A stretch of DNA of 64,000 bases from positions 160,001 to 224,000 of the IMG/VR virus record IMGVR_UViG_3300005544_000020; one strand, 5' to 3'. The translations under genes and the position numbers were made by a program. This DNA is from a virus (Duplodnaviria; Caudoviricetes). Of the stretch, positions 9,729 to 9,971 are shown in pieces. Under the pieces are notes generated by a model that was not told the origin of the DNA, searched no databases, and was given only the letters and a program-made list of their open reading frames with translations. Position 1 is the first letter of the stretch. Each line of letters opens with the position of its first letter.

Positions 9729-9800
9729 TGGTGCGGGGGCTGGGGCGCGACCCACAGACTTCCGGGCTTGCGCCCGGCGTGCGCTTCACACTCCCCCCGC
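9729..9800 (-). ncRNA. tRNA-like RNA type B copy 1, GCAA tetraloop
   Basis: GCGGGGG/CCCCCGC acceptor, A73, CCA; GUGUG-AAG-CGCAC; CCGGGC-GCAA-GCCCGG; CUGUGG-GUCGCG-CCCCAG. Confidence 0.75.
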
Positions 9801-9820
9801 GAATGATCACTGGAAAAAAT

Positions 9821-9898
9821 TGGTGGGCAGGGGAGGACTTGAACCTCCGGCCTTCCCCGGCTTGCGCCGGCGACGCTCTTTCTCTGAGCTACCTGCCC
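9821..9898 (-). ncRNA. tRNA-like RNA type A copy 2, GCAA tetraloop
   Basis: Same acceptor as copy 1; D loop AGAGAAA; UCGCCGGC-GCAA-GCCGGGGA; T arm GGAGG-UUCAAGU-CCUCC; CCA. Confidence 0.8.
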
Positions 9899-9899
9899 A

Positions 9900-9971
9900 T
9901 GGTGCGGGGACTGCGGCGCGACCCGCAGACCTCCAGGCTTTCGCCCGGTATGCACTTCACACCCTCCCCGC
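9900..9971 (-). ncRNA. tRNA-like RNA type B copy 2, GAAA tetraloop
   Basis: GCGGGGA/UCCCCGC acceptor, A73, CCA; GUGUG-AAG-UGCAU; CCGGGC-GAAA-GCCUGG; CUGCGG-GUCGCG-CCGCAG. Confidence 0.75.

What the first reader, a model, noticed from the sequence alone, without database searches (positions are those of the whole stretch)
9729..9971. Type B tRNA-like RNAs: a second, more divergent cloverleaf (7-bp acceptor + 6-bp T stem, GNRA loop)
Two copies (9729-9800, 9900-9971) each end in ACCA and sit 1 nt upstream of a type A RNA, giving a B-A-B-A tandem array. Each has a 7-bp acceptor, a compact D hairpin, a 6-bp stem with GCAA or GAAA (a GNRA-preserving change), and a 6-bp T-like stem with a GUCGCG loop. 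Compensatory changes exist (acceptor G7-C vs A7-U). Standard tRNA finders would probably miss them. The 13-bp acceptor+T length recalls tRNA-Sec geometry, but there is no UCA anticodon.
Basis: partly seen in the sequence, partly recalled or inferred. Interest (0 to 1): 0.82.

Follow-up and report, generated by a model that had tools for sequence, protein, structure and literature searches.

The report
Phage tRNA-shaped RNAs without anticodons
A large uncultured phage encodes a conserved 72-nucleotide RNA that folds like a tRNA and ends in CCA but has a capped hairpin instead of an anticodon loop. It always sits behind a peptidyl-tRNA-hydrolase-like gene that needs an amber-suppressor tRNA to be translated, so it looks like a new non-decoding tRNA mimic of unknown job.

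Summary
On the minus strand, 9900-9971 and 9729-9800 are two 72-nt copies of a cloverleaf RNA (type B). Each ends in ACCA and lies 1 nt upstream of a type A tRNA-like RNA.

B is a real, selected RNA:
- A covariance model finds it in about 15 related phage or metagenome contigs, always downstream of the same gene.
- Across 17 distinct sequences, 99% of the base-pair positions counted are paired.
- 15 of 23 pairs show compensatory changes on both sides.
- RNAalifold predicts the same fold independently.

The "anticodon" arm varies in length (3-6 bp) and in cap (GCAA, GAAA, UUCG, UAGA). It is therefore structural only, and the GNRA cap is not conserved. The D hairpin (GUGU..GCAC), the T region (GGGUCGCGCC) and the NCCA end are nearly invariant. 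ARAGORN and Rfam do not recognise B.

The upstream gene has a Pth2/PTRHD1 fold and opens with a conserved in-frame UAG. An amber-suppressor tRNA lies nearby in most loci.

The function is not shown. My best reading is a trans-acting, non-decoding tRNA mimic that is matured like a tRNA, with the Pth2-like protein as its most likely partner. The tRNA-Sec resemblance is only numerical.

I found no published description. This scan had already noted similar mimic arrays on other DNA (e1-3435479).

The parts
9900..9971 (-). Type B tRNA-like RNA, copy B2: 72 nt, acceptor GCGGGGA/UCCCCGC, GAAA-capped 6-bp arm, T region GGGUCGCGCC, 3' end ACCA.
   Evidence: Sequence. CM R1 92.4 bits and R2 88.7 bits. 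Covariation.
9729..9800 (-). Type B tRNA-like RNA, copy B1: 72 nt, acceptor GCGGGGG/CCCCCGC, GCAA-capped 6-bp arm, one U.C mismatch in the T stem, 3' end ACCA.
   Evidence: Sequence. The minimum-energy fold is the cloverleaf. CM 95.3 and 90.6 bits.
9821..9898 (-). Type A tRNA-like RNA, copy A2. It has a canonical tRNA body with the D loop AGAGAAA, and the anticodon arm is a 7-8 bp stem capped by GCAA. It starts 1 nt after B2.
   Evidence: Rfam tRNA 49.4 bits. ARAGORN calls a forced 'Ala CGC'. The minimum-energy fold has a tetraloop. Covariation of the extended stem.
9649..9727 (-). Type A tRNA-like RNA, copy A1. The D loop AGUUGGUA keeps the GG, and the arm is an 8-bp stem capped by GCAA. It starts 1 nt after B1.
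   Evidence: Rfam tRNA 55 bits. Fold. Alignment A5.
9801..9820 (-). A 20-nt U-rich spacer between the first B-A unit and the second.
   Evidence: Sequence. No terminator-like site was found.
9979..10335 (-). Pth2/PTRHD1-fold gene. It opens ATG AAC GAA ACG TAG, with the in-frame amber at 10321-10323. There is no alternative start before the conserved N-terminal strand. Its stop codon lies 7 nt before B2.
   Evidence: Translation. AF2 model with pLDDT 88.6. Foldseek hits to Pth2, Bit1 and PTRHD1 with TM 0.68-0.79. No Pfam or PDB sequence hit. The early in-frame TAG is conserved in every homologous locus inspected.
10343..10371 (-). Probable promoter, TTGACA-N17-TAGTCT. It would drive the Pth2-like gene and, with no terminator in between, the B-A-B-A array.
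   Evidence: The same two hexamers and spacing occur in L005 and L007. The simple consensus scan did not call it, because the -10 hexamer matches only 3 of 6 positions.
13483..13556 (-). Amber-suppressor tRNA (anticodon CUA), the third conserved member of the cassette. Here it lies 3.1 kb upstream, with four genes in between.
   Evidence: ARAGORN. A CUA tRNA lies within about 1.5 kb of the Pth2-like gene in roughly 40 of 64 loci.

Best explanation
Type B is a genuine, conserved, phage-encoded tRNA mimic that cannot decode.

Shown by computation:
- It is a four-helix cloverleaf of 71-73 nt with an encoded NCCA 3' end.
- Its D hairpin and T region are nearly invariant and could still form a tRNA elbow. 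The loop reads G-U-C-R-Y-G, which fits a T loop one nucleotide short, and there is a conserved G in the D loop.
- Its 'anticodon' arm is only a capped stem of variable length.

Inferred mechanism:
- B is co-transcribed from the promoter of the Pth2-like gene.
- It is cut out of the B-A precursor by RNase P, which cuts at its own 5' end and at the 5' end of the following A. Exonucleases then trim the 1-4 nt tail, giving a stable 72-nt RNA with a 5' phosphate and a CCA-OH end.
- It acts in trans through its acceptor/T-arm/CCA half on a protein that binds tRNA 3' ends.
- The most likely partner is the co-transcribed Pth2-fold protein, with B as substrate analogue, acyl carrier or regulator. All of this sits within a cassette that is expressed only when UAG is read through by the cassette's suppressor tRNA.

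My odds: about 0.9 that B is a real non-decoding tRNA-shaped RNA; about 0.6 that it is a processed, trans-acting RNA; about 0.35 that the Pth2-like protein is its direct partner.
For: Structure:
- CM hits of 49-100 bits in about 15 independent contigs.
- 99% of the base-pair positions counted are paired, 15 of 23 pairs have compensatory changes on both sides, and none of 500 shuffles reached this. The slid controls are 42-50% paired.
- RNAalifold gives the same structure.

Non-decoding:
- The arm closes on 4-nt caps of unrelated sequence and shrinks to 3 bp.

Linkage:
- Every B found lies on the same strand downstream of a Pth2-like gene. This includes both contigs found by a DNA pattern scan of IMG/VR that did not use the protein.
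- In the 236-kb genome, B occurs only here.
- The protein has a Pth2/PTRHD1 fold.

Dosage and trans-action:
- B-A units are duplicated in several lineages (window, L024, L026). Both copies stay intact through compensatory changes.
- The NCCA end is encoded in all copies.
- No terminator lies between the ORF and the RNAs.
Against: - Nothing is experimental. Transcription, processing, stability and any binding are all inferred.
- Most loci were collected through the Pth2-like protein, so the linkage is biased. Only one scan was independent of it.
- About two thirds of the loci with a Pth2-like gene have no mimic, so the protein does not need B.
- The protein has no sequence-level match to Pth2, and I could not verify its catalytic residues.
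- The canonical acceptor-stem determinants for anticodon-independent charging are absent: G3:U70 for Ala, G-1 for His, and the long variable arm for Ser. The 'acyl carrier' version therefore needs an unknown enzyme.
Confidence: 0.4

Rival explanations
1. B is a decoy or sponge for a host anti-phage toxin. B and A would soak up host enzymes that attack the tRNA body or its 3' end: CCA-end pyrophosphokinases of the CapRel/toxSAS type, MenT-type nucleotidyltransferases, GNAT acetyltransferase toxins, or tRNA-shape-recognising nucleases. Because the mimics lack an anticodon loop, they could bind such enzymes without being needed for, or interfering with, decoding.
For: - The phage context, and the high-dosage tandem units.
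- Only the acceptor, T arm, elbow and CCA are conserved.
- tRNA-repair-type neighbours occur in some loci: an RNA ligase (PF09414) and a PP2C phosphatase in L004-L006, and a Tpt1/KptA-like protein next to the array in L132.
- Pth enzymes are known to detoxify N-acetyl-aminoacyl-tRNA made by GNAT toxins (my own knowledge, not tested here).
Against: - No defence or anti-defence gene is consistently linked. The neighbours differ from locus to locus.
- Type-specific conservation of the acceptor-stem sequence is not obviously needed for a generic sponge.
- This reading gives no reason why a sponge should be tied to an amber-gated gene.
Confidence: 0.2
2. B is a cis-acting processing or stability element, a form of tRNA punctuation like mascRNA at the 3' end of MALAT1. 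Its main job would be to direct RNase P cleavage. That cleavage would set the 3' end of the Pth2-like mRNA, 7 nt after its stop codon, or separate cistrons. The released RNA would have no function of its own.
For: - B starts 7 nt after the stop codon.
- In L010 and L013 the B-like element lies between a leader ORF and the next gene's Shine-Dalgarno sequence.
- Many phages use tRNA-like processing signals (my own knowledge).
Against: - The loop and D-hairpin sequences and the encoded NCCA end are nearly invariant, and two or three distinct mimic types are kept side by side. That is more than RNase P needs.
- B-A units are duplicated downstream of one another, where no mRNA end needs to be defined.
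Confidence: 0.15
3. B is an aminoacyl carrier for a non-ribosomal reaction. A host synthetase or an unknown phage enzyme would charge B and A. They would then donate the amino acid to a transferase (Fem, L/F-transferase or GNAT-fold type), or act like a tmRNA without a message on stalled ribosomes. The Pth2-like enzyme would recycle the acylated RNA.
For: - An intact acceptor stem, a purine discriminator and CCA.
- Type-specific, conserved acceptor sequences.
- A neighbouring esterase-fold (Pth2) protein.
- A GNAT gene 1.2 kb upstream in this window.
Against: - The identity sets for Ala, His and Ser are not met.
- The discriminator varies between A and G within type B.
- No synthetase-like or transferase gene is conserved beside the cassette.
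- The GNAT gene is not part of the module in the other loci.
Confidence: 0.12
4. B is a decaying tRNA pseudogene, or a chance GC-rich fold.
For: - The single-sequence z-scores are only -2.1 and -3.1, and the minimum-energy fold of B2 is not the cloverleaf.
- GC-rich DNA folds easily.
Against: - B is conserved across contigs whose Pth2-like proteins are only about 55-65% identical.
- 15 of 23 pairs have compensatory changes on both sides.
- The NCCA end is intact in every copy.
- Position and orientation are always the same.
Confidence: 0.02

Closest known systems
Phage T4 RNAC and RNAD (the 'species 1 and 2' stable RNAs of the T4 tRNA region)
   Same: They are small stable phage RNAs encoded among tRNA genes and co-transcribed and processed with them. 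They do not decode, and their roles are still unknown (PMC3014915).
   Different: I did not test sequence or structural relatedness. By my own knowledge the T4 RNAs are longer, and I know of no link to a Pth2-like gene or a suppressor tRNA. B is a compact 72-nt cloverleaf with a capped anticodon arm.
mascRNA (the tRNA-like small RNA cut from the 3' end of MALAT1; Rfam RF01684)
   Same: It is a cloverleaf tRNA mimic with no functional anticodon. RNase P releases it from the 3' end of a longer transcript, and it ends in CCA. Its excision defines the 3' end of the upstream RNA, as B's excision would for the Pth2-like mRNA.
   Different: It is a eukaryotic nuclear RNA whose CCA is added after transcription. 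RF01684 gives no significant match here: 16.1 bits against a gathering score of 42.5, and that weak hit is on A2, not B.
tRNA-like modules of bacterial Y RNAs (YrlA; Rfam RF02553) and the tRNA-like domain of tmRNA
   Same: These are non-decoding RNAs that copy the tRNA acceptor, T arm and elbow, and are handled by tRNA enzymes. Some jumbo phages encode the Ro/TROVE partner (PMC7824862).
   Different: YrlA scores 17.7 bits against a gathering score of 69, and its RNA ends lie in the Ro-binding stem. tmRNA has G3:U70 and a message domain. ARAGORN in tmRNA mode finds no tmRNA in the genome.
Canonical tRNA and tRNA-Sec
   Same: They share the four-arm cloverleaf, the 7-bp acceptor, the purine discriminator and CCA. 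B's acceptor and T stems sum to 13 bp, the same number as in tRNA-Sec.
   Different: B has no 7-nt anticodon loop, no U33 and no anticodon. It has a 6-nt T loop and a 3-6 nt D loop. RF00005 and RF01852 give no hit on B even at E <= 10. B has no long variable arm and no UCA.
PTH2 genes of jumbo phages (Iyer et al. 2021, PMC7824862)
   Same: The neighbouring protein belongs to the broad Pth2 fold, which is already reported in jumbo phages. Distant homologues (35-41% identity) exist in the cultured phages Xoo-sp13, XacN1, ME3, RsoM2USA, CBB, GAP32 and BF.
   Different: The passages of that paper I searched mention neither an in-frame stop nor a suppressor tRNA, and its only 'tRNA-like' passage concerns the Ro/TROVE partner. 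The four cultured phages I searched contain no B.

Membership tests
Canonical tRNA (Rfam RF00005) | A cloverleaf with a 7-bp acceptor stem and an NCCA end. | tested here: met
   The acceptor pairs are 100% paired, 5 of 7 with compensatory changes, and every copy has NCCA.
Canonical tRNA (Rfam RF00005) | A 7-nt anticodon loop with U33 and an anticodon. | tested here: not met
   The arm is a 3-6 bp stem closed by a 4-nt cap: GCAA, GAAA, UUCG, UAGA or AUCU.
Canonical tRNA (Rfam RF00005) | A score at or above the family threshold, or detection by a tRNA finder. | tested here: not met
   RF00005 gives no hit on B even at E <= 10. ARAGORN does not call B.
Canonical tRNA (Rfam RF00005) | A 5-bp T stem with a 7-nt T-psi-C loop, and a D loop with G18 and G19. 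| tested here: not met
   B has a 6-bp stem and the 6-nt loop GUCGCG (GUYRYG). Its D loop of 3-6 nt has a single conserved G.
tRNA-Sec (Rfam RF01852) | A 13-bp acceptor plus T helix, arranged 8+5 in bacteria. | tested here: inconclusive
   The sum is 13, but arranged 7+6.
tRNA-Sec (Rfam RF01852) | A UCA anticodon, a long variable arm, and a 6-bp D stem with a 4-nt loop. | tested here: not met
   B has no anticodon, a 4-nt variable region and a 4-5 bp D stem. RF01852 gives no hit on B.
tmRNA tRNA-like domain | G3:U70 alanine identity, and a message domain with a tag reading frame. | tested here: not met
   Position 3 of the acceptor stem pairs as G-C or C-G. ARAGORN in tmRNA mode finds none in the 236-kb genome.
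Y RNA-like YrlA (Rfam RF02553) | The covariance-model score, and RNA ends lying in a Ro-binding stem. | tested here: not met
   17.7 bits against a gathering score of 69. B's ends lie in the acceptor stem.
mascRNA-type tRNA-like small RNA | Release by RNase P from the 3' end of a longer transcript. | not testable with these tools
   The position 7 nt after the stop codon fits, but no RNA data could be consulted. RF01684 is not matched.
Type III toxin-antitoxin RNA repeats (ToxI-like) | Tandem identical RNA repeats cut by, and inhibiting, a cognate endoribonuclease toxin. | tested here: not met
   The neighbouring protein has a Pth2 esterase fold, not an endoRNase fold. Many loci have a single B-A unit of two unlike RNAs.
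tRNAs chargeable without an anticodon (Ala, His, Ser identity) | G3:U70 (Ala), G-1 opposite C73 (His), or a long variable arm (Ser). | tested here: not met
   B and A have G3-C70. The discriminator is A or G, which rules out the C73 needed for His, and the base before the RNA is U or C in the window copies. The variable region is 4-5 nt.

The most novel reading that the evidence does not exclude
B, together with A, B' and C, would be a new class of dedicated, non-decoding tRNA mimics. They would be working parts of a self-contained translation-control cassette made of an amber-suppressor tRNA, a UAG-gated Pth2-fold enzyme and the mimics. For example, they could be the enzyme's specific acyl- or peptidyl-RNA substrates, or regulators that set how strongly UAG is read through during infection.
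Probability: 0.2. Interest if true: 0.9.

Novelty: new variant of a known kind. Interest (0 to 1): 0.7.

Why it matters
Non-decoding tRNA mimics are known in a few forms: the tmRNA domain, the Y-RNA modules, mascRNA and viral tRNA-like structures. In each case they revealed an unexpected use of the tRNA shape.

Here a whole set of anticodon-less, CCA-ended cloverleaves is kept by selection in large soil and sediment phages. They sit beside a peptidyl-tRNA-hydrolase-fold gene that can be translated only through an amber codon read by the cassette's own suppressor tRNA.

If the mimics are substrates, regulators or decoys in that circuit, they would show a new way for phages to control or protect translation. 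They would also give a function to Pth2-like genes and 'orphan' suppressor tRNAs in jumbo phages.

B shows in addition that tRNA finders and Rfam miss a real tRNA-shaped family. A model now exists to search for it.

Tried and rejected
- **First DNA pattern for B in IMG/VR**: gave one chance hit, L003, with no cloverleaf and no tRNA.
- **Direct protein-to-locus search with the single Pth2-like protein**: found nothing. It worked only with an alignment.
- **Pattern scan of 185,579 GTDB species genomes**: 52 hits, none confirmed by the CM.
- **CM search of 151 Acidobacteriota genomes**: no hit, so B was not found in those searched.
- **CM search of four cultured jumbo phages that have Pth2-like homologues**: no B.
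- **More distant Pth2-like loci**: no B.
- **Pfam, PDB-sequence and PHROGs searches**: they do not name the Pth2-like protein or the small helical protein. Only two PHROGs families of unknown function were matched.
- **Assigning type A an amino-acid identity**: I compared its 5' half with acidobacterial tRNAs. It resembles Lys, Phe and Arg tRNAs equally, which is uninformative. Three further matches are chance hits with no tRNA fold, and ARAGORN calls none there.
- **tRNA-Sec, tmRNA, YrlA, mascRNA and ToxI-type readings**: rejected as family memberships (see the membership tests).
- **The alternative minimum-energy fold of B2**: rejected, because it breaks the T stem, which covaries, and the D stem, which stays fully paired.
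- **The overlapping ORFs 9638-9982 (-) and 9728-10018 (+)**: I regard them as artefacts of GC-rich RNA genes.

Full report
**Where the window lies.** The window is bases 160001-224000 of a 236-kb IMG/VR phage record with 57.7% GC. TAG still ends 79 of 309 long open frames, so the genome is not TAG-recoded.

**Observation.** Reading the minus strand gives this order:
- the stop codon of an upstream ORF (9981-9979);
- 7 nt;
- B2 (9971-9900), one U, A2 (9898-9821);
- a 20-nt U-rich spacer;
- B1 (9800-9729), one U, A1 (9727-9649).

Both B copies are 72 nt and end in ACCA. Each draws as a 7-bp acceptor, 2 nt, a 4-5 bp hairpin, 1 nt, a 6-bp stem capped by GAAA or GCAA, 4 nt, a 6-bp stem with the loop GUCGCG, and a discriminator A followed by CCA. 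B1 has one U.C mismatch in the T-like stem.

ViennaRNA gives the cloverleaf as the minimum-energy fold for B1 (z -2.1) but a different fold for B2 (z -3.1). Single-sequence folding is therefore only weak support. ARAGORN and Rfam call the two A copies as tRNA (49-55 bits) and find nothing at B, even at E <= 10.

**Is it more than chance? Homologues.** The upstream ORF (9979-10335, minus strand) has relatives in metagenomes. Fetching their contigs showed the same arrangement: a CUA tRNA, a promoter, the ORF, then B and A.

A protein-profile search brought in 13 viral and 47 metagenome loci. A covariance model built from four B sequences (R1) found B at 49-100 bits in the window (two copies), L004-6, L007/L032, L008 (two), L021 (two), L022, L023, L024 (two), L025 (two), L026 (two), L033/34 and L065. 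Every hit is on the gene's strand and downstream of it. Later searches added L121 and L132/133.

On the 17 distinct sequences:
- 99.0% of the base-pair positions counted are paired, against 42-50% when the 3' partners are slid;
- 15 of 23 pairs have changes on both sides;
- none of 500 shuffles reaches the observed values.

RNAalifold predicts the same four helices on its own. The acceptor stem switches between GCGGGGR/YCCCCGC, GGGGAGG/CCUCCCC, GGGCGGG and GGCCGGG. The T stem switches between CUGCGG, CCGCGG, CCACGG, GUCUGG and GCUCGG, each with a matching 3' strand. B is a selected structured RNA.

**Anatomy.** Three parts are nearly invariant:
- the D hairpin, G-U-G-U ... G-C-A-C/U;
- the T region, GGGUCGCGCC, with two variants whose loops read GUCAUG and GUUAUG;
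- the NCCA end.

The T loop reads G-U-C-R-Y-G. That fits a T loop one nucleotide short: U55, C56 and R57 are kept, and a G.Y pair takes the place of the 54-58 pair. The D loop keeps one G that could pair with the T-loop C. An L-shaped elbow is therefore plausible, but this is inference.

The 'anticodon' arm is not conserved. It is 3-6 bp long and capped by GCAA, GAAA, UUCG, UAGA or AUCU. B cannot decode.

**Type A and further types.** Type A has a canonical tRNA body, but covariation supports a 7-8 bp stem closed by a tetraloop (GCAA, GAAA or UUAG, or CCCGGG in one case) in place of an anticodon loop. In its alignment, 98.6% of the base-pair positions counted are paired and 11 of 24 pairs changed on both sides.

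Other mimic types sit in the same slot:
- B' has the B acceptor and D hairpin with a canonical T arm (L010, L013, L121).
- A 136-nt type C has an insertion of about 60 nt in the D region (L022, L065).
- A 154-nt element with a 9-bp terminal stem and a UCCA end occurs in L008.

B is usually 1-4 nt upstream of an A, but other orders occur: A-B-A in L132, B-C-A in L022 and B-B-x-A in L008.

**The neighbouring gene.** The ORF has no Pfam or PDB sequence match. An AlphaFold model built with 27 homologues (pLDDT 88.6) matches archaeal Pth2, human Bit1/PTRH2 and PTRHD1 with TM 0.68-0.79 and E about 1e-6.

The gene opens ATG AAC GAA ACG TAG, and there is no other start codon before the conserved first strand. 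An early in-frame TAG, in frame with the domain, is present in every homologous locus I inspected; it most often reads ATG ACN TAG G. A CUA tRNA lies within about 1.5 kb in roughly 40 of 64 loci. Here it lies 3.1 kb upstream, at 13483-13556.

A TTGACA-N17-TAGTCT promoter is shared by the window, L005 and L007. No terminator separates the ORF from the RNAs. PTH2 in jumbo phages is published (PMC7824862). The passages I searched in that paper mention neither an in-frame stop nor a suppressor tRNA, and its only 'tRNA-like' passage concerns the Ro/TROVE partner.

**Distribution.**
- B was not found in more distant Pth2-like loci.
- It was not found in four cultured jumbo phages that carry distant homologues of the protein.
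- 52 exact-pattern hits in GTDB genomes were all rejected by the CM.
- It was not found in 151 Acidobacteriota genomes.
- The one scan that did not use the protein, a DNA pattern over IMG/VR, found two contigs, L008/L120 and L121. Both carry the Pth2-like gene and a CUA tRNA.

So every B seen is linked to the cassette, while only about a third of the cassettes carry mimics.

**How it most likely works.**

Shown:
- B is a conserved cloverleaf with a CCA end and no anticodon.
- It lies on the same strand as the UAG-gated Pth2-fold gene, behind the same promoter region.
- It is duplicated as B-A units in several lineages, with both copies kept intact.

Inferred:
- It is co-transcribed with the gene.
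- RNase P cuts at the 5' ends of B and A, and the 1-4 nt tail is trimmed, giving a stable 72-nt RNA.
- The RNA acts in trans through its acceptor/T/CCA half.

The most economical partner is the co-transcribed Pth2-fold protein, because Pth enzymes bind exactly this half of a tRNA. I put this at about 0.35.

The rivals are: a sponge for host toxins that attack tRNA 3' ends or the tRNA body (0.2); a purely cis-acting RNase P punctuation signal (0.15); and an acyl carrier for a non-ribosomal transfer or rescue reaction (0.12). A pseudogene or chance fold is excluded by the covariation.

The canonical identity elements for anticodon-independent charging (G3:U70, G-1, a long variable arm) are absent. 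Any charging would therefore need LeuRS-like recognition or an unknown enzyme.

**Comparison with what is known.** In function, B resembles mascRNA, the T4 RNAC and RNAD RNAs (whose roles are unknown, PMC3014915), the tRNA-like modules of YrlA, and the tRNA-like domain of tmRNA. It is not a member of any of these families: Rfam scores are far below threshold, and the defining features are not met (see the membership tests). The tRNA-Sec likeness is limited to 7+6 = 13 bp.

Full-text searches found no description of anticodon-less tRNA mimics beside a Pth2-like gene. Earlier unchecked notes of this same scan describe the amber-gated Pth2 cassette, and one other mimic array, on other genomes. 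I re-tested the cassette features here but do not count those notes as evidence.

**Verdict.** B is a new, well-supported family of non-decoding tRNA mimics. Its mechanism remains inferred.

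Noticed in passing
window 10321-10335 (-); L005 3968-3982; L007 3857-3871; L121 4083-4097; L009-L051: The Pth2-like gene always opens with a mini-ORF of 2-5 codons ending in an in-frame TAG, most often ATG ACN TAG G. A Thr codon before the TAG and a purine after it are common. A CUA tRNA lies within about 1.5 kb in roughly 40 of 64 loci. This looks like expression gated by amber suppression.
   Followed up: partly
L010 1817-1849; L012 1814-; L013 1819-; L014 2091-; L017 1799-; L020 1799-; L048 2038-2070; L051 1815-1850: Many distant cassettes have a second mini-ORF right after the Pth2-like stop. 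It also carries an early TAG, followed by R-G-P-P. RGPP is a documented ribosome-arrest motif (PMC12992588). In L017 the sequence after the stall site is complementary to the Shine-Dalgarno region of the next gene. That gene is a conserved 90-120 aa protein with the motif ITAxLNxYHELRG..YRH and no family match. The leader may sense read-through by stalling. The small protein is absent from this window's genome by tblastn.
   Followed up: partly
L022 1915-2050; L065 214-352; L008 2244-2397: Larger tRNA-like elements sit between B and A. One is a 136-nt RNA with a 7-bp acceptor, a GAAA-capped arm, a canonical T arm, a GCCA end and an insertion of about 60 nt in the D region. Another is a 154-nt RNA with a 9-bp terminal stem and a UCCA end. 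Neither matches Rfam.
   Followed up: partly
L010 1873-1955; L013 1888-1963; L121 4720-4800: B' hybrids combine the B-type acceptor (GGGGAGG) and D hairpin (GUGU AACGUCA GCAC) with a canonical T arm (GGNGG UUCAACU CCNNC). They still lack a 7-nt anticodon loop. They look like an evolutionary link between types A and B. The L121 copy reaches 37.9 bits on Rfam tRNA.
   Followed up: partly
L135-L163 (30 IMG/VR contigs): The type A D arm (GUAGCUC AGAGAAR GAGYG, with no G18 or G19) occurs in 30 viral contigs. It is often inside large tRNA arrays of jumbo-phage-sized contigs. Most of these RNAs also have capped or odd anticodon arms, with GGAA, UUCG or nested GCAA hairpins. The same D arm occurs in a CUA suppressor tRNA next to a Pth2-like gene (L156), and in RNAs that ARAGORN reads as UCA tRNAs (L135, L142, L151, L157, L158). 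Type A mimics are therefore far more widespread than B and may derive from suppressor-type tRNAs.
   Followed up: partly
window 12714-13463 (-); L132 3844-4572: A 249-aa protein lies directly downstream of the CUA tRNA. In L132 and L133 its homologue lies about 40 nt downstream of the mimic array. Its C-terminal half resembles the NAD-binding domain of tRNA 2'-phosphotransferase Tpt1/KptA: the top 19 Foldseek hits align about 100 residues at rmsd 2.3-3.3 A, but with weak E-values of 4e-3 to 8e-2. A relative without the cassette keeps the gene (L134), so the linkage may be coincidental.
   Followed up: partly
L143 about 8560-9030 (-); L145 1190-1770; L150 about 630-1160 (-): This is a variant cassette. 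The Pth2-like gene is preceded by a conserved CATTGACAGTCAGC box. It is followed, or preceded, by an odd tRNA whose loop reads CGUAAUGAC, plus A-type mimics capped by UUCG, and there is no B. The gating signal may differ here, with a different stop codon or an unusual anticodon loop.
   Followed up: no
L004-L006; L007 2511-3617: The neighbours of the cassette differ by lineage. L004-L006 have an RNA ligase (PF09414) directly upstream of the CUA tRNA and a PP2C phosphatase directly downstream of A. L007 has a TnpB/IS605 OrfB gene upstream. In this window a GNAT acetyltransferase lies at 11204-11560.
   Followed up: no
window 9606-9634 (-): A promoter-like site (TTGAAA-N17-TATCAT, 10 of 12 matches) lies immediately after A1. 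It probably starts the next transcription unit, the Pro/Ala-rich membrane protein at 9050-9544.
   Followed up: no
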